This document shows positions 1-49,743 of a DNA stretch of 49,743 nucleotides, one piece after another. Below the pieces are notes generated by a model. That model saw only the letters and a list, made by a program, of their open reading frames with translations. It was not told the origin of the DNA and did no database searches. The translations under genes and the position numbers were made by a program. This DNA comes from a virus. The stretch lies in the IMG/VR virus record IMGVR_UViG_3300045988_138037; one strand, given 5' to 3'. Each line of letters opens with the position of its first letter. Position 1 is the first letter of the stretch.

Positions 1-55
1 AAAAAGAATTAAAAGAATTAAAACTTACTAAAAACATCATCATACCTTTTCCTAA
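1..55. repeat. 55-bp terminal direct repeat identical to 49689..49743 (assembly overlap of a circular or circularly permuted genome)
   Basis: The string aaaaagaattaaaagaattaaaacttactaaaaacatcatcataccttttcctaa occurs at both window ends. Confidence 0.95.
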
Positions 56-2405: not shown

Positions 2406-2474
2406 ACATTGGGTGGCGTTAATTCGCCACTCGTGATAAAATAAATATATATAATTAACAAGAAAGGAAAAGTT

Positions 2475-4601: not shown

Positions 4602-4617
4602 TTGAAAGGAGGATTTT

Positions 4618-7600: not shown

Positions 7601-9960
7601 TAGAGGATAATATTAAATATCTTGATAATCTTGGTGTTGATAGAAAAGTGTATTTTAACGAACTTAAAAACCAAAAACTTAAATTAATCCAATCTATACA
7701 ACAAGATATGCAAGTAGGTAAAAATTTAAACGGAACAAACCCTTTAAATGGTATTATCAAGAACACTACAAAAGGTATTAACCCACTTGAAATGGCTCAC
7801 ATCAAAATAAATGGTAAAGCACTTAATAATATAGATGAACTTACACCAGACCAATTACAATGGAAGTATTTAATGACAGAAGGTGCTAAAACTATTGATG
7901 AGTTGTTTGATATACCAAGCCCTAAAATGTTACAACGTGGAGATAACTTAGGTAGCGAAATAAGTAATATGTTAGGAAATAAGAACAACACACAAACTCT
8001 TGGTGATGTGAATACAAATCTTAACAAAGCTAATAATCCATTTGATGAGTTTTTAGAGAATAAACCTAATCTTAATAATCTACCTACACCTGCTATAAAT
8101 GAATTACCTAATACACCACACTTTAATAATTTTATAAGTAAATTGACAGGTAAAGTTGATGGTGGTGTTCAAGAAGTTATGGATATAGCAGATAATCATA
8201 TCAAGGTTAATGAAGATTATGTTCATCTACCAGATTTATTAAAAGAGCAAAACAACTTCCCTGTTGATGGAGATTTTGATGTACTTGATTTATTAAAACC
8301 TAATGTTGACAACGATAGCCAAGTTAATATGCTTGGATATATAACAGGGCAAAAACTAGATGTTGATAAGAGTTCGCTTTATAAAAACAAAAACAAATCA
8401 CAAATAAAATTACCTAAAATACCTAATGAACTTGATAGTGGAAGTTTCAAGCAATACGCAGATAAACTTTATGAGCTTGGTATTAATCCATATCAAAAAC
8501 CTCCTAAAACAAAACCTAATAATATGCCAAATGAAGTTTATGAATATTGGAATGAGTTTTCAAATAAAGTTTTATCAGATGATGTGTCTAAAAAAGGTAT
8601 TAATGAATTGAAAAAAATAGATGAACACATCGCTAAAAATAGTAAAGAACTTGTAAAGCCTACAAAAACTACACCAGACAAATCTCTTGAAAACTTAAAT
8701 GTATATGAAGATAGTATGAAAAATTCTACAAAAACAATTCATAAAAACATTTATGAGTATAACAAACTTAACAAACACATTGATGATGTTAATATAGATG
8801 ATTATATGGGGTCTACTAATAAAATGTCTAAACATAAAGATAACGAACTTTATGATATGTATAAACGTTGGTTAAACTCTTGGAAAAAAGGACTTACAGT
8901 ATATAACCCAGGTTGGCACGTACAAAACTTCTTCCAAAACAAAGGGCAAAACTACCTTGCACTTGGAGCAGACGCTTTACTACCTCAAACAGAAGCTAGA
9001 AACGTACTTAAACAAATCAATGGTAAAGGTGGTAAAAATGGCTTTATAAAAAGTGCAAAAACTAACCAAGTATATAGTTATGATGAGATAGGAAAACTTG
9101 CACAAGAACTAGGTGTAGTTGACGGTCTTGGAGAAGATGTAAGAAATGCTAGGGGTATATTCCCTAGACTTGAAAATCAAATAGATAACTCGTCTATAAT
9201 GAAATGGTTAGGAACTAACGAACAAACTGCACGTTTAAATCACTTCGTAAAACAAATCGAAAGAGGTATGTCTCCAGAGGATGCTTCTAAATCTGTAAAC
9301 AAATACTTATTTGATTATAGCAAGAAAAATAAAGTTGATGATTTTATGGGAGATTTTGTAGACCCATTCTGGACATTCCATAAAAACAATGCAAGACTTA
9401 TGTATGGTTCAATGTTTGAGCACCCAGGTAAGATAAACTCTATAATAAGAGGTACTAAAGGTTTAGAAAATGGTATACCAGAAGAACAACGCCAAAACGA
9501 AGAGTTTAAATATGGAAAAATACAAAAACCTTATGCAAATCTTACTGATAGTGTAAATGGAGACCAATACAATTATTTATATAAACAAAATATGTTCCCA
9601 AATGTTGAGGACGCTATACCATTTGAAAGAGATGATATAGAAAACAAAATGAACCCTCTTGTACGCATGTTAATACAACAATCACGTGGAGAAGGTAATT
9701 TTGGTAACAAGATAGTTGAAGAAGGTGAAGAACCAGGGTGGAATGAAATAACTATGGAACAAAGATTGAAAGAAGTTCTTATGGATTTAAACCCATTTAT
9801 GCCAAACTTAGTTAAAACATTAGATAGTGAAAAGAATAGACAACAAAAATCAGATGAAGGTAAACAAAGTCAAGAAATTACAGATAAACAAATACTTATG
9901 GATTGGATAAATTATATAACAGGTAATAAGGGGAATTGGTACAGAAATTTAGACTTATAA
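4618..9960 (+). CDS. Giant (1780 aa) virion-associated protein; candidate internal core/ejection protein (positional analogue of T7 gp16)
   Basis: Strong SD gaaaggagg. Basic N-terminus, a Gly/Ala hydrophobic segment (IGAIGSYGLAGIAGVAEDSG), and position between the fibres. No catalytic motif recognised. Confidence 0.35.
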   Translation: MSSKKKKFEQQIQQNKINRVTNKNAKYNKKMSKSDENYIKGNYTKSVNQTVYGVKKNLAEGQKVHGYGDDYIDTKGMKRSRYVKKQNGENPYEAKYAYQTGKPKYVKGGTKADGTKYDGFYSNKRLLKGYEKESYKNTGTLNNKEYMPKQKYALMSSHKWDNAEKFSDHLNTKVWDGIETAKANQRKGKHISNALEYVKGGAKDVIFDPAMDFMKSIGAIGSYGLAGIAGVAEDSGNLAKAIADPKRDYKYYSQGRNNLKENLKANKEELDKTGFGKYMGSFLSEAKTRADEGQIRFLKDTGRHSDAIEYKKQIEENKKRDTNLLNVTGFVMDLLAPTIVEDKVIDVVKGLGKNTAKSFKELKNGTANLATGIIPEETAKLMANSKKYAGKGSKITGASDDVFYSGKKGKTATDKLLDNQFEKTMDNIKDVVKKNPNTSNLGKFLDTLDSKPLKGTQRSIDGRTLNKKYTQTKDGYIPNLMNSVDEVDNIVKGKANGQYSMFGKDGSMNAYIDNIQNPYARYEKVINKYGDDIDGLVNKIDSMSSHNADATLDYLRKTKPEVYEQVVKGSDEITDMIESTTRRRGYETQQKIKDDNRYFNTKDVNTPKFSAEELAKQKYIKENNYKLLKDVFNPKFVDNVGNIKEREGLLRTGVKNFAQKVSTLSEGTLEEASVQIKNAKYLVDKGEIGAHEVSKMLNDLFFDGKDVVRRNVTPRHANQLLDYVDDMIVKQANGVLEELDSLGNKIPVGEGARKISASLTDYRYDEKMSNLASHFGVKNKAELTDRYKELQTKKRVQPLNTEEFYEYKELGEKIAKWDDEYKNVKYMSDEYDDYAKKAYGKKDGTEGYKEALDELAEKQARIDATKGKENQIREARHKSELGSDPDVTASPRAQGLFHKNVDEYNHVSQNNVGGNIKNQIKPKDKIEYSKSIGLKYVNSKYGVQIPKDKQTFKNVYANKNVKSAVDNLLTLMNKEVKLTQGGKYGDEYAKIRLLVEDNIKYLDNLGVDRKVYFNELKNQKLKLIQSIQQDMQVGKNLNGTNPLNGIIKNTTKGINPLEMAHIKINGKALNNIDELTPDQLQWKYLMTEGAKTIDELFDIPSPKMLQRGDNLGSEISNMLGNKNNTQTLGDVNTNLNKANNPFDEFLENKPNLNNLPTPAINELPNTPHFNNFISKLTGKVDGGVQEVMDIADNHIKVNEDYVHLPDLLKEQNNFPVDGDFDVLDLLKPNVDNDSQVNMLGYITGQKLDVDKSSLYKNKNKSQIKLPKIPNELDSGSFKQYADKLYELGINPYQKPPKTKPNNMPNEVYEYWNEFSNKVLSDDVSKKGINELKKIDEHIAKNSKELVKPTKTTPDKSLENLNVYEDSMKNSTKTIHKNIYEYNKLNKHIDDVNIDDYMGSTNKMSKHKDNELYDMYKRWLNSWKKGLTVYNPGWHVQNFFQNKGQNYLALGADALLPQTEARNVLKQINGKGGKNGFIKSAKTNQVYSYDEIGKLAQELGVVDGLGEDVRNARGIFPRLENQIDNSSIMKWLGTNEQTARLNHFVKQIERGMSPEDASKSVNKYLFDYSKKNKVDDFMGDFVDPFWTFHKNNARLMYGSMFEHPGKINSIIRGTKGLENGIPEEQRQNEEFKYGKIQKPYANLTDSVNGDQYNYLYKQNMFPNVEDAIPFERDDIENKMNPLVRMLIQQSRGEGNFGNKIVEEGEEPGWNEITMEQRLKEVLMDLNPFMPNLVKTLDSEKNRQQKSDEGKQSQEITDKQILMDWINYITGNKGNWYRNLDL

Positions 9961-9972
9961 AGGGGTGAGAAA

Positions 9973-10176
9973 GTGGAGCTTAATATGCAACTTATAAATG
10001 AAATAGTAAATAGCCCTAGTGCTTATTTATCACTGTTTATATTGTTATTAGGGTATGTATTATACTCTTCTCAAACAAGAGAAAAAGAGATGAGAGAACA
10101 ATTAGATAAAACCGTACCTGTTCTTGAAAAAATATTAATACGTTTAGATGTAATCGAAGATAAATTAGAAAGGTAA
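9973..10176 (+). CDS. BhlA/UviB-type holin-like small membrane protein
   Basis: One N-terminal TM (AYLSLFILLLGYVLY) followed by a charged coiled tail (REKEMREQLDK...), as in the BhlA family. An alternative ATG start lies at 9985. Confidence 0.55.
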   Translation: MELNMQLINEIVNSPSAYLSLFILLLGYVLYSSQTREKEMREQLDKTVPVLEKILIRLDVIEDKLER

Positions 10177-13100
10177 TGATGTGTATGGATAAAATTATAA
10201 AACACAAAAACGCATATATTGATGCCTTTAAAAAAGGGGTAACAGGGGTTGAGAACAATGTTCTTTACCCTAATGTTGACTCTACTTCTCCATATTATAC
10301 AGAACTTAATGAAGAACAAGAAGTTAGTTCGTTTGCATATGAAGTAGGGAAAACTTTAAAAGGTAATATTGGTGGTTCTGGTGGTGGAGATAATAGTGGT
10401 ACAACTATACCAAATCATAACCACGATGATAGGTATGCAAAAATAGTTCACGACCACGATGGTAGATATTATACTAAAATTCAAATTGATGAGTGGAGAG
10501 ATAGACTTATAAATGGTGATTTGTTATTCAACAAGATAAATTCAAATCATATACAAGCAGGTACTATCGTAGCAGGTAGTACAATAATAGCAAATGGTGC
10601 AATAGGTGATGCTCAAATCAACAAAGTAAGTGCAGATAAACTTGATGCAGGAGTTGTTGACACATCAAAAGTAACAATATCGGGTGCTAATGGTAATTTA
10701 AAACTTAGAGGTAATAGACTTCAAGTATTTGAAGGCATAGGGTCTAAACAATTTGAAAGAGTATCTTTGGGTGATGTGAATGATGACGGTACTGTATATG
10801 GTCTTAGAGTACGTGGTGCAGACGGTCAAACTATATTGTATGATGAGAATGGAGTATATCGTGAAGGTATAACTGACGGTTCTATAAACAATGATAAAAT
10901 AGCAGGAGATGCTAATATAGACGGTGGTAAACTTAATATACACTCTGTTATAGATAATATAAATAAAGATGGTACAGGTACAATACACGGTACTAAAATA
11001 GATATAGACGGAGAGAGTGTAACATCTAAAATATTTAATATCGAACTTAACCAAGATGAACAATCTGAAACAATAGAAAGACAACAATCAGAAATAGACC
11101 AAAATAAAGAACAAATAAAACTTAAAGTAAGTAACCAAAAGTACACGGAAGATATGGCATCTATGACAAGCAAGTTAGAAAAAGCCGAGTCTGACATAGA
11201 GATTTTAAACGAAGGTATAAAACTTACTGCAAGTAAAACAGAAGTACAAAATCAAATCAACAATCTTAAAGATTTCGTATCAGGAGAATTAGGTGATATA
11301 AGTGTTGGTGGAACTAACTACTTAAATAACTCTGCACCTCGTAAAGCTACTGTTGATGAGTTAATAACTTGGGATAGAACGTTAAACGGTACTCGTAAAT
11401 TAACTTATTGGCAAGATTATAATGATAGTGTAGAAAACCCACAGATAGGTTATCATCCACATATAGACCTAGAAACCTTTCATTTCCCTTGTATAGCTCT
11501 TATAAACCGTAATGCGAAGTTTAGTATGGCTAACAGAGAACTAAGTCTTAGGCAGGAAATAAACAATGAAGAAGATATTATAATACCTAATGAACAATAC
11601 GTAATATCTTTTGACGCATATTCTGATACGAGTTTATTTAGTTTCCACGGAGGACTTTATCATAAAAATGTCGAAAGTAATAATTATAACTACCATAGCG
11701 GAAGAATGGATATAACTATCTCACAAGATAATGTAGGTACTTGGAAAAGGTATAGTTATTCGTTTACAATTCACAAAGGAATAGACACATCAGAACCTAT
11801 CTACTTTGTTATTAATGGTCATAACAATCCAGAGGGTAGTGGTTATATAAAAAATATAAAATTAGAAAAAGGTCATATCGTATCTCAATGGACTCCTTCA
11901 CAAACTGACTCTAATGATAGTTTAAATGATGTTGTAAATGATATGAAAGATTTTGTAAACAAATCTATATCTGAATACAATACAAGTATAGATGTTAGAT
12001 TTGATGGTATAACTCAAAGCGTATCTAAAATAGATAAAACTGTCAATGGTGTTAAAAATGATTTAAGTAACTTAGAGATAGGTGCTAGAAACTTAGTTAA
12101 AAACTCTGCATTTATTGACGGTAAAAATAATTGGATATTAGGTGCTAATGTAATTATTGATACAACTAAAACTTTTAATGGGCATCCTTCTTGTAAAAGT
12201 GCACAAAAAGGACTTGCAAGTAATGGTTACAGAGGGTGTGAAAACTATAACCTACCTAATAAAAACTGCTTGTCTATGAAAAAAGGAGAGATTTATACTG
12301 TAAGTTGTTGGTATTATGTTGAAGATAAAAATACTTTTAATGGAATTCTTGCCCTAGAATGTAAAGGTAAGTTAGACAACAATACTTCTAATTCAGTTAT
12401 AATGCGTGTTAGTGTCGATAAAACTGCTATGGTTGAAAGTCAATGGACTAAGATATTTAAAACAATTACTGTTGATAAAGACTATAGTGATGTGTGTGTC
12501 AGAGCGTGGGTAGGTAGAGATGGTATTGCTTGGTTTACTGATTTCAAACTTGAAAAAGGTAATAAATCTACTGATTGGTCTCCTGCACCAGATGATATGA
12601 AAGATTATGTAGATGAAGCTATAACTAATCAAAGTGCAAGTATAGATATTAAATTTGATAGTATAACAAATAGAGTAGAGTCTACTGAACAAACTGTTGA
12701 TGGTGTCAATCAAAAATATACAGAACTTAAACAAACTGTTGATAGCTTTAATTTTACAGGTTTAGTTAAGTTTGAAGATTTATCTAAACTTGGTGGCACT
12801 ATTATAAATGGTGGTAATATAGACACAACTAATCTTCGTGTAAAAGGTGAGTTGATAAGTGGTCAGATAAATGGTGTAGGTGGTATAAAATTTGCTCAAG
12901 GTGCAATTATATCTTCTTATGACTCTCATGTTGGAGGATATAAAGGCATACAAATATCTGCTCCTAGCATCAAACTTGGTGATAAAGTAGACATACATAG
13001 TGCTATAATGTATGGTGATGTTATTGGTAAAAATAATACTAGCTCTGGTACTACAACTTGGACTATGAGTAGTACAGGTGCTTTGAGTTGTGCTAGTGCT

Positions 13101-13751
13101 AAATTAAGTGGAACTTTGAGTGTAAGTGGTGCTATTTATGGTATGAATAATCTTTCACTAGCAAGAGGTTCACTATATGTACCTATCTTTGAAACAAATA
13201 TTACTTGTGATTATATAAGAGGTGGAAACTCTTCTATAGCATTTACAGATACAGGTCCAATACACTTTATATATAATGGATTGAGAAGTTCATTTATTGC
13301 AGGAGGAGTAATATTTTTACCGCATGGTGGGAATGTAAATTGCGACCACTTTAGATTGGGAGCAGGAATTATGGCATCTCCTTCTAGTGGTAGTTTTCAC
13401 TTTTTAACTGCCAATGGAACTACTTCACCACTATATGCAGGAATATTATATTCGGCAACTAGAATGTCTTTAAATGAACCTATGGTTATATCAAACAATT
13501 CTGTTTTTGATAAGATAAATAGTATAGATGTAATAGAAACTAAAGATGGATTAAGGTTATATAACCCTATACCAACCACAAAAGCCATAGACAAATCAAC
13601 CGAAGTTGTAAAGACTGAATATGATGAGGATAAAAACGAAATAAATACGAGTGTAGATTATACATCTGCAATTTCTACACTATGGAAAGCAGTACAAGAA
13701 TTAAAGCAAGAAAATGAAGAACTTAAAAAACTTATAAAAGGAGAGATTTAA
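10176..13751 (+). CDS. Tail fibre/spike protein with duplicated carbohydrate-binding-like modules and a C-terminal intramolecular-chaperone-like domain
   Basis: NHNHDDRY/HDHDGRY His motifs. Two modules end in KLEKGHIVSQWTPS and KLEKGNKSTDWSPAPDD. The C-terminus VDYTSAISTLWKAVQELKQENEELKKL resembles S74-type chaperone domains. Confidence 0.65.
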   Translation: MMCMDKIIKHKNAYIDAFKKGVTGVENNVLYPNVDSTSPYYTELNEEQEVSSFAYEVGKTLKGNIGGSGGGDNSGTTIPNHNHDDRYAKIVHDHDGRYYTKIQIDEWRDRLINGDLLFNKINSNHIQAGTIVAGSTIIANGAIGDAQINKVSADKLDAGVVDTSKVTISGANGNLKLRGNRLQVFEGIGSKQFERVSLGDVNDDGTVYGLRVRGADGQTILYDENGVYREGITDGSINNDKIAGDANIDGGKLNIHSVIDNINKDGTGTIHGTKIDIDGESVTSKIFNIELNQDEQSETIERQQSEIDQNKEQIKLKVSNQKYTEDMASMTSKLEKAESDIEILNEGIKLTASKTEVQNQINNLKDFVSGELGDISVGGTNYLNNSAPRKATVDELITWDRTLNGTRKLTYWQDYNDSVENPQIGYHPHIDLETFHFPCIALINRNAKFSMANRELSLRQEINNEEDIIIPNEQYVISFDAYSDTSLFSFHGGLYHKNVESNNYNYHSGRMDITISQDNVGTWKRYSYSFTIHKGIDTSEPIYFVINGHNNPEGSGYIKNIKLEKGHIVSQWTPSQTDSNDSLNDVVNDMKDFVNKSISEYNTSIDVRFDGITQSVSKIDKTVNGVKNDLSNLEIGARNLVKNSAFIDGKNNWILGANVIIDTTKTFNGHPSCKSAQKGLASNGYRGCENYNLPNKNCLSMKKGEIYTVSCWYYVEDKNTFNGILALECKGKLDNNTSNSVIMRVSVDKTAMVESQWTKIFKTITVDKDYSDVCVRAWVGRDGIAWFTDFKLEKGNKSTDWSPAPDDMKDYVDEAITNQSASIDIKFDSITNRVESTEQTVDGVNQKYTELKQTVDSFNFTGLVKFEDLSKLGGTIINGGNIDTTNLRVKGELISGQINGVGGIKFAQGAIISSYDSHVGGYKGIQISAPSIKLGDKVDIHSAIMYGDVIGKNNTSSGTTTWTMSSTGALSCASAKLSGTLSVSGAIYGMNNLSLARGSLYVPIFETNITCDYIRGGNSSIAFTDTGPIHFIYNGLRSSFIAGGVIFLPHGGNVNCDHFRLGAGIMASPSSGSFHFLTANGTTSPLYAGILYSATRMSLNEPMVISNNSVFDKINSIDVIETKDGLRLYNPIPTTKAIDKSTEVVKTEYDEDKNEINTSVDYTSAISTLWKAVQELKQENEELKKLIKGEI

Positions 13752-13752
13752 T

Positions 13753-14439
13753 ATGAAAATAGGAATAGATATGGGTCATACATTAAGTGGAGAAGGAACG
13801 GGTTCTCAAGGTTGTGGTTACAAAGAACAAAACTTAACTAGAGAACTTGGTAAAATAGTAATAGAAATGCTTAAAAAAGAAGGTCATACTGTTTATGATT
13901 GTACAGTAGACAAATCAAGTAACAATGCTCAACAACTTATAGATAGAGTTAATAAAGCTAATAAACAACCACTAGATTTATTCGTGTCAATACACTTTAA
14001 CGCTTGTGTTAATGATGTGAAGGGTGATGGTCGTACAACAGGTACAGAAGTACTTTTACACTCTATGTCAAGTAAAGCGAAACCTTACGCAGAAAGAATA
14101 GTAAAGAAAATCGCAAATGTAGGTCTTAAAAATAGAGGAGTTAAAACACATAACGCATATGTACTTAAACATACTAAAGCACCTGCATTATTAATAGAGA
14201 CTTGCTTTATAGATGATAGAGATGATATGAATGTATACTTAAAAAGCCCTAGAAAGGTCGCTAAAGCGATTGTAGAAGGTATATTAGATAAAACTATAAC
14301 TGACGTTGTTGAAACGCCTAAAAATGGCTTCTATCGTGTTTTAGTGGGTAGTTATAAGGATAAAAATAACGCTATTAAAAGACAAGAAGAACTTAAATCA
14401 AAAGGTATAGAAGCATCGTTAATATACTTCCAAGAATAA
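13753..14439 (+). CDS. Endolysin: N-acetylmuramoyl-L-alanine amidase (Amidase_3-like) with a C-terminal SPOR domain
   Basis: GIDMGH..., SIHFNA and ETCFIDD motifs. The C-terminus FYRVLVGSYKDKNNAIKRQEELKSKGIEASLIY is SPOR-like. Confidence 0.85.
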   Translation: MKIGIDMGHTLSGEGTGSQGCGYKEQNLTRELGKIVIEMLKKEGHTVYDCTVDKSSNNAQQLIDRVNKANKQPLDLFVSIHFNACVNDVKGDGRTTGTEVLLHSMSSKAKPYAERIVKKIANVGLKNRGVKTHNAYVLKHTKAPALLIETCFIDDRDDMNVYLKSPRKVAKAIVEGILDKTITDVVETPKNGFYRVLVGSYKDKNNAIKRQEELKSKGIEASLIYFQE

Positions 14440-14707: not shown

Positions 14708-14781
14708 TGGCAGGAGTGGTAAGAATTGAACTCACGTCTACGGTTTTGGAGACCGTTGTGTTACCATTACACCACACTCCT
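14708..14781 (-). tRNA. trnW: tRNA-Trp (anticodon CCA) with encoded CCA end
   Basis: The reverse complement AGGAGTGTGGTGTAATGGTAACACAACGGTCTCCAAAACCGTAGACGTGAGTTCAATTCTTACCACTCCTGCCA folds as a 74-nt cloverleaf. It has a 7-bp acceptor stem, anticodon loop CTCCAAA and T-loop TTCAATT. Confidence 0.9.
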
Positions 14782-16434: not shown

Positions 16435-16950
16435 TTAATACTTATTATCTTGTCTTTTGTGATTTTCTTTATTTTTGTCTTTATAGCACTTGTATAAATC
16501 TTCTATATTGTATCCACACTTATTAACTACTACTCCTAATACCAATAATATTTGGTTTAAATCTTCCCAATCTTTCTCGATAAACATATCGCTTATCATA
16601 CAATCTAGCATACCGATTAAATCATTCATATCATATTCATCTGTATTATAATCGCCTGGTTGCTTTTCTTCTACTAATTCAACTCTATTATCTATTGCTA
16701 TACTTAGTATAAAGTGTAGTACATCACATGCTTCTTCTAGTTGATTAGTTTTATTTTTGTTTTTCTTCCAATATTTAAAACTTTCTATCTCGTTTGCTAA
16801 TTCAAATAACTCTGTTTTTAAAGCTAAGAATTTCTCTATATTTAGGTTAGCGTCCGCAGGTATATCATTTTCTTTTTTTACTCTTGTGTCTAATTTTCTT
16901 TGTAAGCGTCTCATTTCGTTTAATTCTTCTTGTGTAAAAACTGTTCTCAT
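16435..16950 (-). CDS. Dimeric (all-alpha) dUTPase / NTP pyrophosphohydrolase family protein
   Basis: KFLALKTELFELANEIESFKYWK, EEACDVLHFILS and a C-terminal YKDKNKENHKRQDNKY resemble dUTPase_2-family motifs. Confidence 0.65.
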   Translation of the reverse strand: MRTVFTQEELNEMRRLQRKLDTRVKKENDIPADANLNIEKFLALKTELFELANEIESFKYWKKNKNKTNQLEEACDVLHFILSIAIDNRVELVEEKQPGDYNTDEYDMNDLIGMLDCMISDMFIEKDWEDLNQILLVLGVVVNKCGYNIEDLYKCYKDKNKENHKRQDNKY

Positions 16951-16972: not shown

Positions 16973-17332
16973 CTACATATCGCAAATATCTTGCTCGTAC
17001 TCTTTAATTATAACATTTTTTCTATTTTCTGCCAATGCTTTAAGCCCTAATTCACACGTTTGTATTATAGCACTTATACCTGCACAAGTTATACTGTCCT
17101 CGTTATGTCCGTGTACTTCTATATTCATATAACCGTCGCCTTTAGTTATGTTTATTTTAGTTATACCTTCTAGTTTTCTCAATTTTATATCACTCCTTTT
17201 TCTTCCACTTATTATACTTGATACGTGTCCTTGTGTTATTCCGTATTTTTTCGCTATATCTATTTGTTTTTCTCCATTAAGATATGCACTCTTTATCTTT
17301 TCTATTTCGTGATTTGTTAATTTAAACTCCAT
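16973..17332 (-). CDS. prp: Fusion of an N-terminal HTH domain with a Prp-like (ribosomal protein L27-processing) cysteine protease domain
   Basis: HTH: QIDIAKKYGITQGHVSSIISG. Prp catalytic His/Cys signature: EVHGHNEDSITCAGISAIIQT (compare S. aureus Prp GHADHGEYGHDIVCAGASAV). Confidence 0.7.
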   Translation of the reverse strand: MEFKLTNHEIEKIKSAYLNGEKQIDIAKKYGITQGHVSSIISGRKRSDIKLRKLEGITKINITKGDGYMNIEVHGHNEDSITCAGISAIIQTCELGLKALAENRKNVIIKEYEQDICDM

Positions 17333-17336
17333 TTTA

Positions 17337-18161
17337 TTACCCCCACATTTTCGCCATTAAAGTGTTGTACATAAGTGATAAAACTGTCATTACTCCTGTA
17401 TGACCCGTTCCAGATGCTACTAACACATCAAGCTCTTCTAAATCTTCAATTTTTACATCTCCACAAAGTTTACCTTCGTACATATTCATAGAACAATCTA
17501 TTATTATTTGTCCGTCTTTAAAATAACTCTTATCGAAGAATTTAGCTTTACCTATACCTGTTATAACTATATCTGCGTTTTGCATCTTCTCTTTTAAGTT
17601 TTTAGTTTTTGAATGACACATTGTAACAGTTGCATTTTCATCTGTAAGCATTATTTGAAGCGGTTTACCTATTAAATTACTTCTATTTACTATTACTACG
17701 TCTTTTCCTTCTAATTCTGTGATGTGAATTAACATATTTAAAACACCAAGAGCAGTACAAGGGTACATTATTTTACCGTTTTGAGTAGTTAATCTACCTA
17801 TTTGTTTAGTACCTAGACCGTCTACGTCTTTCTCCACATCAATAGTATCAAGAGTTTTACGCTCGTCTAAGTGTTTTGGAAGTGGCAATTGAACTATTAT
17901 ACCATTTGTATCACAATCTGTGTTGTAATACTCTATAATCATTTCTAAATCTCTTTGTGGTATATCGTTTTTTAATAACGTATGTTCAACTTCTATACCT
18001 AACTCTTTGCCTAATTTAATTTTGTTCTTAACATAAGAATTTGATGCTTTATCTCCTTCAACTTGTAATATAACTAATTTAGGAGCAATGCCTTTTGTCA
18101 TTGAAGCCTTAAACGCATCCTTTATTTCTTGTGCTATTTCTTTTGTATTTATTATATTCAT
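17337..18161 (-). CDS. folD: Bifunctional 5,10-methylene-tetrahydrofolate dehydrogenase/cyclohydrolase
   Basis: PKLVILQVEGDKASNSYVKNKIK, GIIVQLPLPKHL, KDVDG, PCTALG, VVIVNRSNLIGKPL and ATVTMCHSKT motifs. Confidence 0.85.
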   Translation of the reverse strand: MNIINTKEIAQEIKDAFKASMTKGIAPKLVILQVEGDKASNSYVKNKIKLGKELGIEVEHTLLKNDIPQRDLEMIIEYYNTDCDTNGIIVQLPLPKHLDERKTLDTIDVEKDVDGLGTKQIGRLTTQNGKIMYPCTALGVLNMLIHITELEGKDVVIVNRSNLIGKPLQIMLTDENATVTMCHSKTKNLKEKMQNADIVITGIGKAKFFDKSYFKDGQIIIDCSMNMYEGKLCGDVKIEDLEELDVLVASGTGHTGVMTVLSLMYNTLMAKMWG

Positions 18162-27284: not shown

Positions 27285-27923
27285 TTATAAACCTATCTCT
27301 TCATCTTCTTCTGATGATTTGTTAGAGAATACTTCTTCTGGACTCTTACCACTCATTAATCCTAAAACTTGTTCTTGTGTAGGTTTTTTAAATATTTCAT
27401 CAAACGCTTTTAAATCTTTACATAATTCTTTTTGTTCATCAGTTAATTCTGATGGTGTACAAGGTAATAATGTATAAGTTACGTCTGTACTTCCTGCATT
27501 TTGAGTTTTTACTTTTATATTATAACTTCTTATATCTCCTATCTCTTCGTGTAGAGCATGTAATTGAGTAAAGAATGTTTTTCCTTGTTCTAATATTTCA
27601 ACATTACCTGTTTTTAAGTTTAATACGTGCATAGCAAATCTTCTGTTACTTGAATATTGAGGTTTTATTCCTGCTTGTTTTGATGCTTTTATTGCATTAC
27701 ATATTGGACATTCTGCTCCTAAACAAGATACATTTCTCTTTGCTTGTGCTATCCAATGTGCCCATCTTACAAATGGTTCTCCATCTAAAAATCTTAATTC
27801 TGTTAATCCATTTGTTAATTTAGTAAATTCAGTCTTTCCTGTGTTTGATTGAGGGTCTCTTAATACTTCATCCCACCCTCCGAACATTTGTAAATTCATA
27901 GCATTGTTTAATTCTTTCATCAC
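27285..27923 (-). CDS. gp32-like single-stranded DNA-binding protein with a zinc finger, an acidic C-tail and an L27-like N-terminal leader
   Basis: ELRFLDGEPF..H..CLGAECPICNAI..YSSNRRFAMHVL parallels T4 gp32 IRFLPS..H..C..CPVCQYI. Acidic tail SSEEDEEIGL. MNLQMFGG at aa 9-16. Confidence 0.55.
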   Translation of the reverse strand: MMKELNNAMNLQMFGGWDEVLRDPQSNTGKTEFTKLTNGLTELRFLDGEPFVRWAHWIAQAKRNVSCLGAECPICNAIKASKQAGIKPQYSSNRRFAMHVLNLKTGNVEILEQGKTFFTQLHALHEEIGDIRSYNIKVKTQNAGSTDVTYTLLPCTPSELTDEQKELCKDLKAFDEIFKKPTQEQVLGLMSGKSPEEVFSNKSSEEDEEIGL

Positions 27924-29091: not shown

Positions 29092-29769
29092 TCACCCCCA
29101 AGTTTGTGTCATTACTATTTCATTACTGAAATCTAGTATAGTTTCATTATATACTGTTTCACCATTTATGTAATTAAGTAACTTCCATATAGCGTGTGAT
29201 GTTATCGCTAATGCACTTGGTAAAACTGTTTGAGAAACTCCACAAGCACTTACTTCTGCCTCATCATCACTATAAAATGTTTGTTCATACATCTTTGTTT
29301 GTTCTCTGTTTTTCGGGTCAACTACATATATCCTACCTCCACGTAAATCCATACGTGTTTCTATTAACAAATCAATAGAAGGGTTATTTTTTATAGCTCT
29401 GTTATATATATCTTTTCTTGATTTCATAGTATCTGTAAGCATAAATACTATACCTTGCATTGGAACAGAGCCGTCTACCTTCTCATTTCTTGCATTTACA
29501 GTAAAGCCTGTGAATAACTTTATTATATTACGTATTGATAGAGCTTTGTTTCTATCTATATCTCTAACTCCAAACATCTGATTTGGTAAATTGTGCATAC
29601 CAACTTCATCAAAATCGTATATATGTAAGTTACTTAATCCCATTTTTGCAAGTGAGAAAGCAATCCAACTTCCTGTTGCTCCTGCACCTATTATATTTAT
29701 TTTAGTATTAAACTCCTCTGGGTTTAATATGTTGATTTGACGACTAAAATCATCCATTATTCTTGACAT
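29092..29769 (-). CDS. Minimal ThiF/MoeB-type E1-like adenylyltransferase
   Basis: Rossmann GxGxxG INIIGAGATGSWIAFSLAKMG, then IYDFDEVGMHNLPNQMF (D-x-D..NL.RQ-like) and LTDTMKSR. Confidence 0.7.
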   Translation of the reverse strand: MSRIMDDFSRQINILNPEEFNTKINIIGAGATGSWIAFSLAKMGLSNLHIYDFDEVGMHNLPNQMFGVRDIDRNKALSIRNIIKLFTGFTVNARNEKVDGSVPMQGIVFMLTDTMKSRKDIYNRAIKNNPSIDLLIETRMDLRGGRIYVVDPKNREQTKMYEQTFYSDDEAEVSACGVSQTVLPSALAITSHAIWKLLNYINGETVYNETILDFSNEIVMTQTWG

Positions 29770-37278: not shown

Positions 37279-37352
37279 TGTCTTTATTCTCCTTTAGTTT
37301 TGATATAGTTTGGTTTTGTAAATTGGAAAAATCTCTACTCCCCAGTAGTCCC

Positions 37353-37544
37353 CTAGTGTCTTTTCTTTAGTGTTTTAAGAATGTTTATAAACACTTGCTT
37401 TATACCACACTCTGGTATAGTTGTATTGTACTTTTCTAAATAGAAAGTTTTAAGCTCGACCCAAGCAGTCTCCTCATCGTGGTTAAGGTTAAAACTAACC
37501 TTTGCTCTTTCGTTTAGGTCTGATATGTTTAGTTGTTTTATCAT
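37353..37544 (-). CDS. Hypothetical small protein
   Basis: SD aaaggag; 63 aa. Confidence 0.5.
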   Translation of the reverse strand: MIKQLNISDLNERAKVSFNLNHDEETAWVELKTFYLEKYNTTIPECGIKQVFINILKTLKKRH

Positions 37545-37632
37545 TACGTCTAACTCCTTTATGTATGTATTATATATTTGTGTTTAATAACACAATGTCG
37601 CCCACATCATTAGATGTGAGCAAGATGTATCA

Positions 37633-43231: not shown

Positions 43232-45344
43232 TTCTAAAAAATATATGCCTACTGAAAAGGAAAGAAAACTTGTAGAGTGGGTGTATTCTAAATTTAAACA
43301 AGCATATGTTGCTAAAGCTCCACTTATGGACAAGTGGAAAGAATATATGAGTGCGTATAAAGGTACGTACTTCCAAAATAAGAACTTACCAGATTACAAA
43401 TCAAATGAGATAAGTAATCACGTATTTTCAACAATAGAAACTATAAGACCTATAATGACAGATAATAACCCTAAGTTCTTAGCAGTTCCTTCTACACCAC
43501 AAGGTATGGAATTTTCTGCCGATGTGCAAACTGCACTTGATTATGAATGGGATAGAGAGAAAATGTCTTTAAAACTTCCTGCACAACTTATACCAATGTT
43601 AGTATATGGAAACGCAGTATGGTTTGTTCAATGGGATGGTAAAGACGGTGAATACGGTAATATAAGTATAAAACCTGTTGACCCTTTCAATATATTTCCA
43701 GACCCATTGGCAGAAAGTGTTGACAATTCTGAATTTTTGGTTTATGCTACTTATAGAAACGCAAATCAAATCAAACAACAATTCCCAGAAAAAGCAAGTG
43801 CCATAGAAGGTTCACGTATAACAATGTCTGAATTAGTTGCCGAAAGAGATAATAACGATACACAAGATGCAAACCAAGTTTTAATACTTGAAATGTGGTG
43901 TCGTGATTGGGTAACAATGGACGAGTCGGTAGAAGGTAAAAAACAACTTAAATATCCTAAAGGAAGAGTTATAACGTGTTTACCAGAATTAGGTATCTTG
44001 TTATCTGATAAGAAAAACCCTTATAAAGATGGAAAATTCCCATTTGTACTTATGAAAAACTATGATATACCTTTTGAGTTTTGGGGTGTTGGAGAAATAG
44101 AACAAATAATGTCTCCTCAACACTATGTAAACGAACTTACAAATCAAATCATAGATAATGCTAAAAATACTGCTAATATGCAATGGATAATAGATAAAAA
44201 CTCTGGTATAGGACAAGGTAAACTTACTAACCGTCCAGGACTTGTTATAAGAAAGACTCCTGGTAGTGAAGTTAGAAGAGATACACCACCTGCTATGCCA
44301 AGTTATGTTAGAGAGCAAATAGAAGTTCTTAAAAAAGATATACAAGATATATCTGGAGTGTTTGACTCACTAAAAGGTGAGCAACAAGGTAGTGTAACTG
44401 CGGCGTCTGCAATACTTGCACTTCAAGAAGCATCTCAAGCACGTATACGTTTAAAAATAAAACTTATGGAAGCATCACTTTCTGAACTTGCTCAAATAGT
44501 TTATTCACGTATGCAACAGTTTTGGAAACTAGATAGATGGGTTAGAGTTACTGATGTAGAAGGTAATCCGTCGTTTAGAGAAATTGGTGCACAAGTTCTT
44601 TCAAATGATTATGACTTAAAAGTTATGGCAGGTTCTACAATGCCTGTAAATAGAAACGCTATGTTAGACTTAATGATTAGACTTGCTCAAACAAATGGTG
44701 AGGACGGTTTACCTCTTGTAGATAGAAAAGCCGTATTAGAGTTCTTACCAACAGGAGATAAGAAAGCTATAACAGATAGATTTGCAGAGCTTCAAGCTCA
44801 ACAACAACAAGCTCAACAAGAACAGTTACAACAAGAGCAACAAATGCAAATGCAACAAGCTCAACAACAAAAAGGTGAGTTAGACCAAAGTGTAACTGAA
44901 CAAGTAATGAGTATGTTACAACAAGTTGTTCAAGCGTCTGATTTGACTTCTAAACAAGTTGATGAACTTATAATGGATAAAGAACAAAGAGATAAGAAAG
45001 AGTATGAGTCTCAAATCGAAGAAAAAGGTTATAAGAGAGGATTAAAAGACGGTAAAGTGCAAAGTAAAGAAGAAGAGGAAGAAACGCCTACTGAGGAAAC
45101 TTCTGATGTGAATGAAGAAGAAAAGAAAATGTTAGAAGAACAATTACTTTCTGAAAATGCACAAATGGAAGAAGCACTTAACTCTCAACAAATACCAGAT
45201 GAAGTCTTAGAAGAGTTATTAGCTTTAGCTCAACAAGACCCAGAGATGTTTAGAGAGATATTACAAAACTATCCACAATTAGCAGAAATGCTACAACAAG
45301 ATATGCAAAATATGAATGGGGGAATGATTAATGAAGATATGTAA
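43221..45344 (+). CDS. Portal protein
   Basis: 707 aa, directly after the terminase genes and before the scaffold and capsid genes; Q/E-rich C-terminal tail. Confidence 0.75.
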   Translation: MSDNSKKYMPTEKERKLVEWVYSKFKQAYVAKAPLMDKWKEYMSAYKGTYFQNKNLPDYKSNEISNHVFSTIETIRPIMTDNNPKFLAVPSTPQGMEFSADVQTALDYEWDREKMSLKLPAQLIPMLVYGNAVWFVQWDGKDGEYGNISIKPVDPFNIFPDPLAESVDNSEFLVYATYRNANQIKQQFPEKASAIEGSRITMSELVAERDNNDTQDANQVLILEMWCRDWVTMDESVEGKKQLKYPKGRVITCLPELGILLSDKKNPYKDGKFPFVLMKNYDIPFEFWGVGEIEQIMSPQHYVNELTNQIIDNAKNTANMQWIIDKNSGIGQGKLTNRPGLVIRKTPGSEVRRDTPPAMPSYVREQIEVLKKDIQDISGVFDSLKGEQQGSVTAASAILALQEASQARIRLKIKLMEASLSELAQIVYSRMQQFWKLDRWVRVTDVEGNPSFREIGAQVLSNDYDLKVMAGSTMPVNRNAMLDLMIRLAQTNGEDGLPLVDRKAVLEFLPTGDKKAITDRFAELQAQQQQAQQEQLQQEQQMQMQQAQQQKGELDQSVTEQVMSMLQQVVQASDLTSKQVDELIMDKEQRDKKEYESQIEEKGYKRGLKDGKVQSKEEEEETPTEETSDVNEEEKKMLEEQLLSENAQMEEALNSQQIPDEVLEELLALAQQDPEMFREILQNYPQLAEMLQQDMQNMNGGMINEDM

Positions 45345-46125
45345 AATGAATTTACAAATGTTTGGTATGAACGATGATAGAGACTTCTTTACATCTGCTT
45401 TTAATGAAGCATATAGTATAACTGATAATACAGAAGCACCTTCTGAGCCAATAGAAGAGCCTGTAAGCGACTCTGTTGAGGAAGTTGAAGAAACACCTGT
45501 TGAAACAACTCCAGTGCCTTATAACCCAAATGACGATGAATTAAGAAGGTTGTATGAGGAGCGTTTTGGTAAAGAAGAAGAACCACAACAAGAAGTTAGT
45601 CCTGTGTATGATGAGGAAACTCAATCTGCACTTGATTTATATAAATATTTAGAACAAAACCCACATCTAGTTCAAGCTATGAGAAACGTAGATGTTGAAG
45701 GTTATACAAACTTAAATAACTTTGTTCCAGATGAATTAACTAAGAAGGTTAAAGAGATGGAAGAGTTTATTGAAGAACAAAGATACAACAGTTATGTATC
45801 TGGACTTAAAAACAAGTATTCTGATTTTGATGAAGATAAGGTTTTAGAATATGCAGAAAAACACGATGTTTTAAACTTAGAAGTAGCTTATAAAGCTATG
45901 AAAGCAGATAGTGTTAAAGAGCCAAATGTAGAAGAACTTAGAAAACAAATCAAAGAAGAGTTACTTAATGAACTTAAACAAAACTCCCTTGAGACACAAT
46001 CAATAGTTGGTGGAGTATCCCAAAAGCCTATCAAACAGGATGACAATGTTAATCTGTCAAGTAGAGAGTCAAGGATAGCGAAAGCTATGGGAATGACACC
46101 TAGCGAATATGCCAAGTGGAGATAA
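45331..46125 (+). CDS. Scaffolding protein with an L27-like N-terminal leader
   Basis: Acidic and helical, between portal and capsid. The N-terminus MKICKMNLQMFG resembles the Firmicute L27 leader (MLKLNLQFFA). Confidence 0.65.
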   Translation: MKICKMNLQMFGMNDDRDFFTSAFNEAYSITDNTEAPSEPIEEPVSDSVEEVEETPVETTPVPYNPNDDELRRLYEERFGKEEEPQQEVSPVYDEETQSALDLYKYLEQNPHLVQAMRNVDVEGYTNLNNFVPDELTKKVKEMEEFIEEQRYNSYVSGLKNKYSDFDEDKVLEYAEKHDVLNLEVAYKAMKADSVKEPNVEELRKQIKEELLNELKQNSLETQSIVGGVSQKPIKQDDNVNLSSRESRIAKAMGMTPSEYAKWR

Positions 46126-49681: not shown

Positions 49682-49743
49682 ATGAAAGAAAAAGAATTAA
49701 AAGAATTAAAACTTACTAAAAACATCATCATACCTTTTCCTAA
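49682..49743 (+). CDS. 5' end of the collagen-like tail fibre gene; continues in frame across the circular junction into 90..2405
   Basis: The ATG at 49682 is preceded by SD gaaagga. [32 protein letters not shown] joins MNDNFEE... in the same frame (32 extra codons). Confidence 0.65.
   Translation, partial: MKEKELKELKLTKNIIIPFP
49689..49743. repeat. 55-bp terminal direct repeat identical to 1..55
   Basis: Exact string identity with the window start. Confidence 0.95.

What the first reader, a model, noticed from the sequence alone, without database searches (positions are those of the whole stretch)
27876..27899. The same L27-like leader (MNLQMFG) on a non-structural gp32-like SSB
The 212-aa protein at 27285..27923 sits in the replication module. 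It has a T4 gp32-like pattern (RFL..., an H/C3 zinc site CLGAECPICNAI, an acidic tail EEDEEIGL). Its N-terminus MMKELNNAMNLQMFGGWDE.. contains the identical heptapeptide found on the scaffold and capsid proteins. I know of Prp-type leaders only on L27 and phage head proteins. A replication protein carrying one would extend Prp-dependent processing to DNA metabolism. In gp32 the N-terminal segment controls cooperative binding, so cleavage could be regulatory.
Basis: partly seen in the sequence, partly recalled or inferred. Interest (0 to 1): 0.75.

Follow-up and report, generated by a model that had tools for sequence, protein, structure and literature searches.

The report
Ribosomal-protein-like cleavable leader on phage SSB
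A gut phage puts the same short, ribosomal-protein-L27-like removable leader on its DNA-replication single-strand-binding protein as on its capsid and scaffold proteins, and it also encodes a truncated copy of the protease family (Prp) that cuts such leaders, so this kind of processing probably reaches beyond virus shells into DNA replication.

Summary
MNLQMFG occurs exactly three times in the six-frame translation. All three lie at N-termini: the scaffold-position ORF, the major capsid protein, and a 211-aa Zn-finger SSB-like protein in the replication module beside DnaB. Codons differ between copies, so conservation is at the peptide level.

In 57 of 60 orthologue clusters the SSB keeps M-N-L-x-x-F-G behind a variable leader. 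117 capsid homologues show the same pattern, including Q/K/R at P3.

The strongest evidence is comparative. Most distant relatives of the SSB start at M-[S/G/A]-W-D-[DE]-V, exactly the predicted cleavage product. Five other lineages carry L27-like leaders (for example MLKLNLQLF|GW) abutting the same Trp. This mirrors long versus short L27.

New here: ORF 16973..17332 encodes an HTH fused to a truncated Prp homologue (hhalign 97%). It keeps the catalytic GH…CAGxSA motif and has a shortened His–Cys loop. It is conserved at the same position in divergent relatives.

The gp32 link is remote: PHROG SSB families, and Pfam gp32 hits only in distant members. Cleavage itself is untested.

Verdict: a new substrate class for a known processing system. 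Interest 0.72.

The parts
27285..27920 (-). Gene for the 211-aa Zn-finger SSB-like protein (gp32-related superfamily), including its stop codon. The ORF listing start GTG 27923 gives 212 aa.
   Evidence: ORF. RBS and overlap with the upstream stop codon. PHROG 14578 and 1192 'SSB'. 70 orthologues. Distant family of 389 representatives, 10 of 78 with Pfam gp32 hits. BFVD fold matches to phage proteins annotated SSB or D11.
27882..27920 (-). Predicted 13-residue propeptide MKELNNAMNLQMF. Predicted scissile bond F13|G14, between 27882 and 27881.
   Evidence: Identical heptapeptide on scaffold and capsid. M-N-L-x-x-F-G conserved in 57 of 60 orthologue clusters. Leaderless relatives start at [S/G/A]-W. 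Residues 1-26 are disordered in the AF2 model.
27867..27881 (-). GGWDE, start of the predicted mature N-terminus (GGWDEV). W16 is the family-wide conserved Trp.
   Evidence: W16 is invariant in 46 orthologues and at least 90% conserved in 78 distant relatives.
27699..27758 (-). His55-x10-Cys66-x4-Cys71-x2-Cys74, the putative zinc site.
   Evidence: Invariant in alignment A1, at least 90% conserved in A2.
27288..27317 (-). Acidic C-terminal tail NKSSEEDEEIGL-type.
   Evidence: D206 and E207 are invariant. Distant members end in SSB-like tips such as ...EDIPF (phi8074-B1) and ...EELPF.
45331..46125 (+). Scaffold-position gene between portal and capsid. Leader MKICKMNLQMF occupies 45331..45363.
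   Evidence: Motif. Position between P22/SU10-type portal and capsid. Relatives carry [MI]NLxxF|[GT] at the same place.
46164..47192 (+). Major capsid protein (Mu gpT-like / HK97 fold). Leader MPKLKMNLQMF occupies 46164..46196.
   Evidence: Pfam PF10124 and PF25209. 117 of 120 homologue clusters have K-M-N-L-[K/Q/R/T]-M-F-G.
16973..17332 (-). 119-aa protein. Residues 1-52 are an HTH (17177..17332). Residues 53-119 are the truncated Prp-family cysteine-protease domain ('mini-Prp', 16976..17176), with G75-H76-x6-C83-A-G-I-S87-A.
   Evidence: Pfam PF04327 gives E 7e-5 for the whole protein and 1.9e-5 for the domain alone, both below the gathering score. NCBIfam Prp equivalogs. Orthologues of 64-68 aa sit at the same position in L054 and L055. 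In a search with my own Prp HMM these three are the only hits below the inclusion threshold among 1,695 ORFs. hhalign gives 96.7-97.6% probability.

Best explanation
The phage's gp32-related Zn-finger SSB is synthesised as a precursor with a 13-residue L27-like propeptide (MKELNNA-MNLQMF). A Prp-family cysteine protease cuts after Phe13, as it does on the capsid and scaffold proteins of the same phage. The protease could be the host's ribosomal Prp, the phage's own truncated Prp homologue, or both. Cleavage exposes G-G-W-D-E-V, the conserved N-terminus that leaderless family members obtain simply by removal of the initiator Met. Shown here: the shared motif, its conservation, the exact junction with leaderless relatives, the replication context, and the phage-encoded Prp homologue with its catalytic residues. 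Inferred: that cleavage happens, which protease does it, and that the leader holds the flexible N-terminal arm inactive until removal. By analogy with L27 and other self-assembling Prp substrates, this would delay SSB self-association or partner binding.
For: Three identical heptapeptides, all N-terminal, with synonymous DNA differences. The SSB motif M-N-L-x-x-F-G is conserved behind a leader of variable length and sequence in 57 of 60 clusters. P6, P5, P4, P1 and P1' are near-invariant, and P3 is Q32/K15/R5. Capsids follow the same pattern: K-M-N-L-[K76/Q36/R4]-M-F-G. Scaffolds do as well, and mixed P3 residues occur within single genomes. A profile search of 1.84 billion representatives was classified for 116 full-length relatives. 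Of these, 78 place Trp within 8 residues of Met (37 are M-[S/G/A]-W), and 5 separate clusters carry L27-like leaders fused directly to [G/A/S]-W: MLKLNLQLF|GW, FDLQFF|GW, LKLQLF|GW, LNLQHF|AW, MNLQRF|SW. Three of those lineages are also adjacent to DnaB. 120 Bacillota L27 genes read M-x-x-MNLQ[LFIY]F|A, and the phage motif mimics them. The L27 motif, the 80alpha capsid/scaffold substrates and the proposed FlhB and phi13 tail-protein substrates are documented in PMC9405229 and PMC5744158. The N-terminal 26 residues are disordered in the AF2 model. A phage mini-Prp with a conserved His/Cys/Ser signature is present in three divergent lineages.
Against: There is no experimental N-terminus, and the host is unknown. 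P3 Gln, described as structurally crucial for S. aureus Prp (PMC9405229), is replaced by K/R/E/T in many orthologues. P2 is Met and P1' is Gly, rather than F/L and Ala. The mini-Prp lacks roughly the C-terminal 40% of Prp and scores below Pfam's gathering threshold, so it may be inactive. Some Bacillota phages in the same SSB family (Bacillus phage G gp377, Clostridium phage phi8074-B1 gp26) have no leader. In phage 80alpha, cleavage of the capsid protein is dispensable (PMC5744158), so cleavage need not be functionally important. The SSB assignment rests on remote homology only; the Foldseek PDB search gave no significant hit.
Confidence: 0.65

Rival explanations
1. The same cleavage occurs, but the phage's own truncated Prp homologue (mini-Prp) performs it rather than the host Prp. 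In this reading the phage carries a self-contained protease/propeptide system. The shortened His-Cys loop has lost P3-Gln recognition, which would explain the free Q/K/R/T/E variation at P3.
For: The mini-Prp is conserved at the same position in the window clade, L054 and L055, with invariant G-H-x6-C-A-G-I-S-A. hhalign to 81 host Prps gives 97% probability. 71 of 81 host Prps have H-x11-C, so the phage loop is 5 residues shorter. In S. aureus Prp that loop binds the P3 Gln (PMC9405229). T. maritima TM1457 has the same short loop, and its proposed FlhB site has no P3 Gln (PMC9405229, Table 3). Streptomyces phage Kromp has a 62-aa mini-Prp between scaffold and capsid, in a host phylum without Prp.
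Against: Only about 60% of the Prp fold is present, and activity is unknown. The single-sequence AF2 model is of low confidence. No mini-Prp was visible in the 14.5-kb contig of the distant leader-bearing lineage P0273, although that contig ends just where the gene would lie. The phage motif still closely mimics clostridial L27.
Confidence: 0.3
2. The leader is not mainly a maturation signal. It acts as a decoy: abundant phage proteins bearing L27-like N-termini bind or occupy host Prp, or the released peptides inhibit it. This would interfere with host L27 maturation and ribosome assembly.
For: The leader sits on three proteins expected to be made in very large amounts. The cleaved peptide is reported to inhibit S. 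aureus Prp competitively (PMC9405229). Catalytically dead Prp traps L27 and is toxic (PMC12324487).
Against: The exact register between the leader's Phe and the family's [S/G/A]-W start argues that producing a precise mature N-terminus is what is selected. A phage needs ribosomes throughout infection.
Confidence: 0.08
3. The SSB-like protein is a head-internal or ejected DNA-binding protein. The shared leader would be a head-targeting and cleavage signal, as with T4 internal proteins processed by the prohead protease.
For: The leader is shared only with the two head-assembly proteins. Relatives encode an additional canonical PF00436 SSB that could serve replication.
Against: The gene lies in the replication module, on the opposite strand from the head genes, directly upstream of DnaB, in every lineage examined. 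This window has no other recognisable SSB. Most family members have no leader at all. In 80alpha, procapsids isolated from infection already contain cleaved proteins, and the authors consider Prp access inside procapsids unlikely (PMC5744158).
Confidence: 0.05
4. The leader is cleaved but has no regulatory meaning. It would be an expression or folding aid for very abundant proteins, or a neutral hitch-hiker, as seems true for the 80alpha capsid protein.
For: [quoted passage not shown] The part of the leader upstream of the motif is variable.
Against: The leader has been acquired or retained on the SSB in at least six clusters at 50% identity with different leader sequences. It is conserved across about 60 orthologue clusters. 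The 80alpha scaffold does need its leader (PMC5744158).
Confidence: 0.2

Closest known systems
Prp-processed capsid (gp47) and scaffold (gp46) of Staphylococcus phage 80alpha, and ribosomal protein L27 of Bacillota
   Same: A short N-terminal extension ends in (D/N)-L-Q-x-F, followed by a small residue. The extension is shared between capsid, scaffold and the host-like L27 sequence. Short relatives begin at the cleavage product (PMC9405229, PMC5744158).
   Different: Here a third carrier is a DNA-replication protein. P1' is Gly and P2 is Met. P3 Gln is replaceable by K/R/T/E on all three carriers. The phage encodes its own truncated Prp homologue, whereas 80alpha relies on the host enzyme.
Other proposed non-L27 Prp substrates: FlhB N-terminus, and the major tail protein of phage phi13
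   Same: An L27-like motif on unrelated proteins, inferred from sequence. The authors note an association with large self-assembling complexes (PMC9405229, PMC5744158).
   Different: None of these is a nucleic-acid-metabolism protein. The SSB case has additional comparative support from leaderless relatives that start exactly at the junction.
T4 gp32 (Pfam PF08804) single-stranded DNA-binding protein
   Same: A His/Cys3 zinc site, an acidic C-terminal tail, and a flexible N-terminal arm. Ten of 78 distant family members hit PF08804.
   Different: The window protein itself has no Pfam gp32 hit, and its model has no significant match in the PDB. Its N-terminal arm is acidic/aromatic (GWDEV), not the basic cooperativity motif of gp32. 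gp32 is not known to be made with a cleaved propeptide (my own knowledge).
Prp cysteine protease (MEROPS C108, Pfam PF04327; e.g. S. aureus Prp 4PEO/7KLD, T. maritima TM1457 1S12)
   Same: The mini-Prp aligns to Prp columns 3-66 and has G-H, C-A-G-x-S-A at the catalytic positions.
   Different: It is 64-68 aa (119 aa with the HTH in this phage) against 105-127 aa for host Prps. The His-Cys loop has 6 residues against 11. The gene lies in a phage nucleotide-metabolism/replication region rather than between rplU and rpmA.
T4 prohead protease gp21 and its N-terminally tagged substrates (internal proteins, scaffold, capsid)
   Same: One protease and one short N-terminal motif are shared by several phage proteins (my own knowledge).
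   Different: In T4 all substrates are head components and the protease acts inside the prohead. Here one substrate is a replication protein and the protease family is cytoplasmic.

Membership tests
Prp-type (L27-like) N-terminal propeptide | Motif lies within the first ~10-20 residues of the protein. | tested here: met
   Residues 8-14 of 211, with the start supported by an RBS and by orthologues.
Prp-type (L27-like) N-terminal propeptide | Consensus (D/N)-L-Q-(F/L)-F | A-(S/H) (PMC9405229). | tested here: met
   N-L-Q-M-F|G-G. P5, P4, P3 and P1 match. P2 is Met and P1' is Gly (small). The sequence is the same as on this phage's capsid and scaffold, and resembles clostridial L27 (K)MNLQ[LF]F|A.
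Prp-type (L27-like) N-terminal propeptide | Motif conserved in orthologues, including the P3 Gln said to be critical for S. aureus Prp. | tested here: inconclusive
   P6 M 55/57, P5 N 55/57, P4 L 57/57, P1 F 57/57, P1' G 52/57. P3 is Q in only 32/57 (K 15, R 5). Capsids show the same relaxation: K 76, Q 36, R 4.
Prp-type (L27-like) N-terminal propeptide | Short relatives lacking the extension begin at the cleavage product, as short L27 does. | tested here: met
   Of 116 full-length distant relatives, 78 place Trp within 8 residues of Met (37 are M-[S/G/A]-W). All 5 clusters with an L27-like leader join it directly to [G/A/S]-W.
Prp-type (L27-like) N-terminal propeptide | Cleavage after P1 Phe by Prp demonstrated. 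| not testable with these tools
   Needs N-terminal sequencing or mass spectrometry, or an in vitro assay.
Prp-type (L27-like) N-terminal propeptide | Host encodes Prp and a long L27. | not tested
   The host is unknown. 31.7% G+C and the MNLQ-type motif suggest a clostridial or other Bacillota host, but no host link was established.
T4 gp32-like SSB (PF08804) | Significant match to the family profile. | tested here: not met
   The window protein has no Pfam hit at E <= 0.01. Only 10 of 78 distant relatives hit PF08804, best 1.8e-7. Membership is therefore at superfamily level, via intermediates.
T4 gp32-like SSB (PF08804) | His + 3 Cys zinc site. | tested here: met
   H55, C66, C71 and C74 are invariant or at least 90% conserved. 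Metal binding itself was not tested.
T4 gp32-like SSB (PF08804) | Structural similarity to solved gp32 or other OB-fold SSBs. | tested here: inconclusive
   AF2 model has pLDDT 81. Best Foldseek PDB matches are E 0.013 (phiC31 integrase-RDF entry) and 0.09 (PRD1 P12 SSB), with gp32 not listed among the matches shown. BFVD matches range from 1e-11 to 1e-4 and include phage proteins annotated SSB or D11.
T4 gp32-like SSB (PF08804) | Acidic C-terminal tail and replication-module context. | tested here: met
   The tail ...SSEEDEEIGL is conserved. The gene is next to DnaB, primase and PolIII-alpha.
T4 gp32-like SSB (PF08804) | Basic N-terminal cooperativity motif. | tested here: not met
   The mature N-terminus is GGWDEVLRDP, acidic/aromatic.
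Prp cysteine protease (PF04327 / C108), for ORF 16973..17332 | Profile match above the curated threshold. | tested here: not met
   23.4 bits for the whole protein and 25.2 bits for the domain alone, against a gathering score of 27. Orthologues score 17.5 and 20.6 bits. In each case Prp is the only family matching that domain.
Prp cysteine protease (PF04327 / C108), for ORF 16973..17332 | Homology by profile-profile comparison. | tested here: met
   hhalign against 81 host Prps gives probability 96.7% (E 4.6e-10), or 97.6% with Kromp gp6 added. With my own HMM the three orthologues are the only hits below the inclusion threshold among 1,695 ORFs.
Prp cysteine protease (PF04327 / C108), for ORF 16973..17332 | Catalytic Gly-His ... 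Cys-Ala-Gly-x-Ser-Ala signature. | tested here: met
   G75, H76, C83, A84, G85, S87 and A88 are invariant in 4 sequences spanning about 50% identity.
Prp cysteine protease (PF04327 / C108), for ORF 16973..17332 | Complete Prp fold (~105-127 aa) and an 11-residue His-Cys loop. | tested here: not met
   The domain covers only Prp columns 3-66 of 115. The loop has 6 residues against 11 in 71 of 81 host Prps.
Prp cysteine protease (PF04327 / C108), for ORF 16973..17332 | Proteolytic activity on L27-like leaders. | not testable with these tools
   Requires biochemistry.

The most novel reading that the evidence does not exclude
These phages may carry a self-contained proteolytic maturation system: a miniaturised Prp-family protease plus cognate L27-like propeptides. 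The system would have been extended from head assembly to DNA replication. Removing the propeptide from the SSB would unmask its conserved G-W-D-E-V N-terminus, switching on or timing its self-association or partner binding. The shortened catalytic loop of the mini-Prp would explain why P3 Gln is no longer required. Similar mini-Prps in actinophages (Kromp gp6) would then define a widespread, unrecognised class of about 60-residue phage proteases.
Probability: 0.25. Interest if true: 0.85.

Novelty: new variant of a known kind. Interest (0 to 1): 0.72.

Why it matters
In the papers I could search, Prp-type processing is documented for L27 and for head proteins, and proposed for a tail protein and FlhB. 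All of these belong to large self-assembling structures. A replication SSB that carries the same leader, with the cut predicted to regenerate the family's native N-terminus, would be the first nucleic-acid-metabolism substrate. The idea is directly testable with one N-terminal sequencing experiment. If cleavage proves regulatory, it would link SSB activation to a ribosome-maturation protease. The phage-encoded truncated Prp raises a further question: can about 60 residues of this fold form an active protease with altered specificity? That bears on Prp as an antibiotic target and on the annotation of small 'hypothetical' phage genes.

Tried and rejected
- DNA-level repeat or recent recombination as the source of the identical peptides: rejected, because the three copies differ at synonymous sites and the motif is conserved across about 60 orthologue clusters.
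- P3 covariation among capsid, scaffold and SSB within genomes, as proof of a shared protease: not found. P3 varies independently, for example capsid T / scaffold E / SSB Q in L044 and R / Q / R in L041. Only the shared pattern counts as evidence.
- Foldseek of the SSB model against PDB gave no significant hit. Sequence and profile searches of PDB found nothing.
- The single-sequence AF2 model of the mini-Prp had low confidence (pLDDT 61). Its Foldseek matches were dominated by the HTH domain and are uninformative.
- No close relative exists in the GenBank phage collection. IMG/VR yielded only near-identical copies of the SSB, FolD and mini-Prp genes.
Scans with P0273 (genomes) and P0200 (viral contigs) found nothing. 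Cluster look-up of the distant leader-bearing proteins returned no names or hosts.
- Wall et al. 2015 (PMC4418427) is not held. The original substrate-specificity data were therefore not read.
- A canonical SSB hidden in the window: none found by tblastn or Pfam.

Full report
**1. The observation**

The window is a closed phage genome. It has a 55-bp exact terminal overlap and 31.7% G+C. A six-frame scan finds MNLQMFG exactly three times:
- residues 6-12 of ORF 45331..46125, which lies between the portal and capsid genes (scaffold position);
- residues 6-12 of the major capsid protein 46164..47192 (Pfam Mu gpT-like / Phage_capsid_4);
- on the minus strand at 27899..27879, inside ORF 27285..27923.

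The likely start of the third gene is ATG 27920. An AGGAG lies 8 nt upstream, and the ATG overlaps the TGA of the upstream gene. Orthologues begin MKELNNAM. The protein is therefore 211 aa, with MKELNNAMNLQMF preceding GGWDEV.

No other real ORF carries an N-terminal NLxxF. Base shuffles give 0 heptapeptides and 0.1 MNL..F[GAS], against 3 observed. The three DNA copies differ at synonymous positions, so selection acts on the peptide.

**2. What the protein is**

It has no Pfam or NCBIfam hit. It does match PHROG families 14578 and 1192, both annotated 'single strand DNA binding protein'.

The gene lies on the early/replication strand, in this order: ThiF-like, HTH, small ORFs, a 171-aa ORF, this gene, a 130-aa ORF, DnaB, primase, DUF3310, PolIII-alpha, PD-(D/E)XK nuclease. 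The same order holds in relatives with 67-82% identical SSBs. DnaB adjacency also holds in three lineages at about 27-30% identity.

Conserved features:
- H55, C66, C71 and C74 are invariant in 46 orthologues and at least 90% conserved in 78 distant relatives.
- The acidic tail is conserved.
- Ten of the 78 distant relatives hit Pfam gp32 (PF08804, best 1.8e-7).

An AlphaFold model built with 46 sequences has pLDDT 81. Residues 1-26 and 201-211 are disordered. The model matches many BFVD phage proteins (E down to 8e-11), some annotated SSB or T5-type D11. It has no significant match in the PDB.

'gp32-like SSB' is therefore a reasonable call at superfamily level, but it is not a demonstrated membership or function. 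Relatives also carry a canonical PF00436 SSB elsewhere; this window does not.

**3. The leader is conserved and shares one pattern with the head proteins**

Among 60 full-length orthologue clusters, 57 have the motif behind a leader that varies in length and sequence:

| Position | SSB orthologues (n=57) | Capsid homologues (n=117 of 120) |
|---|---|---|
| P7 | K 28, variable | K 117 |
| P6 | M 55 | M 117 |
| P5 | N 55 | N 116 |
| P4 | L 57 | L 117 |
| P3 | Q 32, K 15, R 5, E 2 | K 76, Q 36, R 4, T 1 |
| P2 | M 37, L 7, I 6 | M 117 |
| P1 | F 57 | F 117 |
| P1' | G 52 | G 117 |

Using a mid-genome ORF as an anchor, I recovered loci that hold two or all three of these genes from divergent genomes:

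| Genome | Capsid | Scaffold | SSB |
|---|---|---|---|
| window | KMNLQMF\|G | KMNLQMF\|G | AMNLQMF\|G |
| L044 | KMNLTLF\|G | RMNLEIF\|G | KMNLQIF\|N |
| L045 | KMNLQVF\|G | SMNLQIF\|G | EMNLRVF\|G |
| L041 (+P0055) | KMNLRMF\|P | KINLQYF\|T | NMNLRTF\|G |
| L040 | not recovered | TMNLKIF\|G | GMNLRLF\|G |
| L034/L036 | KMNLKMF\|G | KINLKMF\|G | not recovered |

P3 and P2 do not covary. The same positions are fixed and the same positions are free on all three proteins. That is what one shared recognition factor would produce.

**4. The decisive comparative evidence**

A profile of the orthologues was searched against 1.84 billion representative proteins and found 389 relatives. I classified 116 full-length ones:
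- 78 place the conserved Trp within eight residues of the start, and 37 of those begin M-[S/G/A]-W. Ser, Gly and Ala at position 2 are the residues that allow removal of the initiator Met (established knowledge).
- Five separate 50%-identity clusters have longer N-termini, and each is an L27-like leader fused directly to that Trp: MLKLNLQLF|GW, MNKIKFDLQFF|GW, MIDLKLQLF|GW, ...LPLNLQHF|AW, MMNLQRF|SW.
- The remaining 33 are more distant and lack the conserved Trp.

Cutting after Phe would therefore recreate the family's native N-terminus. This is the relationship between long L27 (cleaved to ASKK/AHKK) and short L27 of E. coli (PMC9405229). L27 genes from 120 Bacillota genomes read M-x-x-MNLQ[L/F/I/Y]F|A, and the phage motif copies that sequence.

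**5. A phage-encoded Prp homologue**

Annotating the rest of the window showed that ORF 16973..17332, between FolD and dUTPase, is an HTH fused to a domain whose only family match is Peptidase_Prp. The score is 23-25 bits, below the gathering score of 27.

Stand-alone 64-68-aa orthologues sit at the same position, between the PD-(D/E)XK nuclease and dUTPase, in L054 and L055. They are 52-56% identical (tblastn). G-H-x6-C-A-G-I-S-A is invariant across them.

I built a Prp HMM from 81 prp genes taken from upstream of rpmA. Among 1,695 six-frame ORFs of the window and nine related loci, the only three hits below the inclusion threshold were these three ORFs. hhalign gives 96.7% probability (E 4.6e-10) over Prp columns 3-66 of 115, and 97.6% when Streptomyces phage Kromp gp6 is added.

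How the phage domain differs from host Prps:
- Host Prps are 105-127 aa, and 71 of 81 have 11 residues between the catalytic His and Cys. The phage domain has 6.
- In S. aureus Prp that loop contacts the P3 Gln (PMC9405229).
- T. maritima TM1457 has the same short loop. Its proposed FlhB site has no P3 Gln (PMC9405229).

This suggests, but does not show, that the mini-Prp is a protease with relaxed P3 specificity.

**6. Mechanism**

Most likely (0.65), the SSB is made with a propeptide that a Prp-family protease removes, exposing GGWDEV. The protease could be the host enzyme, the phage enzyme, or both.

Why an SSB should carry such a leader is inference only. Dokland and colleagues note that Prp substrates belong to large self-assembling complexes (PMC5744158). 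A cooperative SSB fits that theme, and the leader may mask the N-terminal arm until it is processed.

Rival readings are scored in the rival-explanation entries: mini-Prp as the sole protease, a Prp decoy, a head-internal protein, and a leader with no regulatory role.

**7. Novelty**

In the searchable literature I found Prp-type leaders reported on L27, on the 80alpha capsid and scaffold proteins, on the capsid of phage 80 and on the phi13 tail protein, and proposed on FlhB (PMC9405229, PMC5744158). I found no replication protein among them, and no description of truncated phage Prp homologues.

SEA-PHAGES annotators label Kromp gp6 simply 'protease'. The finding is a new variant of a known kind.

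Noticed in passing
window 16973..17332 (-); L055 19237..19443; L054 15641..15835: A truncated Prp-family cysteine-protease homologue ('mini-Prp'). It has a 64-68 aa core, fused to an N-terminal HTH in this phage. The catalytic GH...CAGISA signature is conserved, and the His-Cys loop is 5 residues shorter than in host Prps.
   Followed up: yes
L178 (Streptomyces phage Kromp, MH744420.1) 2249..4510: Kromp gp6, a 62-aa 'protease' between the scaffold and major capsid genes, is another mini-Prp (27 bits against my host-Prp HMM). Kromp scaffold and capsid share an N-terminal W-F-[QR]-L-[TD]-R-H-D motif. This could be the cognate cleavage site, in a host phylum that lacks Prp.
   Followed up: partly
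window 37279..37632 compared with L040 9330..9773, L042-L045, L055: Relatives encode a canonical PF00436 SSB just upstream of the conserved 463-aa ORF. This window has only an unrelated 63-aa ORF there, so the gp32-related protein is its only recognisable SSB.
   Followed up: partly
window 1..55 and 49689..49743: An exact 55-bp direct repeat at the two ends, typical of an assembler overlap on a circular or circularly permuted genome. The window is a complete genome of about 49.7 kb.
   Followed up: partly
window 17337..18161 (-), 29092..29769 (-), 16435..16950 (-): Phage-encoded FolD (methylene-THF dehydrogenase/cyclohydrolase), a ThiF-family protein conserved across the clade, and a dUTPase_2. 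FolD is absent from the divergent relatives L054 and L055.
   Followed up: no
window 14708..14781 (-): A single tRNA-Trp (anticodon CCA), between the endolysin (Amidase_3 + SPOR, 13753..14439) and the early region.
   Followed up: no
window 90..13751 (+): Very large tail or host-recognition proteins (771, 708, 1780 and 1191 aa). They carry collagen repeats, Big_2 and CBM_4_9 domains, alongside an SU10/P22-type portal and adaptor, which suggests a podovirus-like virion.
   Followed up: no
SSB model mfbeec3358c73 against PDB: The best, non-significant solved-structure match (E 0.013) is chain I of entry 9teh, a phiC31 integrase-RDF fusion. This raises the question of whether phiC31 gp3-type RDFs are related to this Zn-finger SSB-like family.
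   Followed up: no
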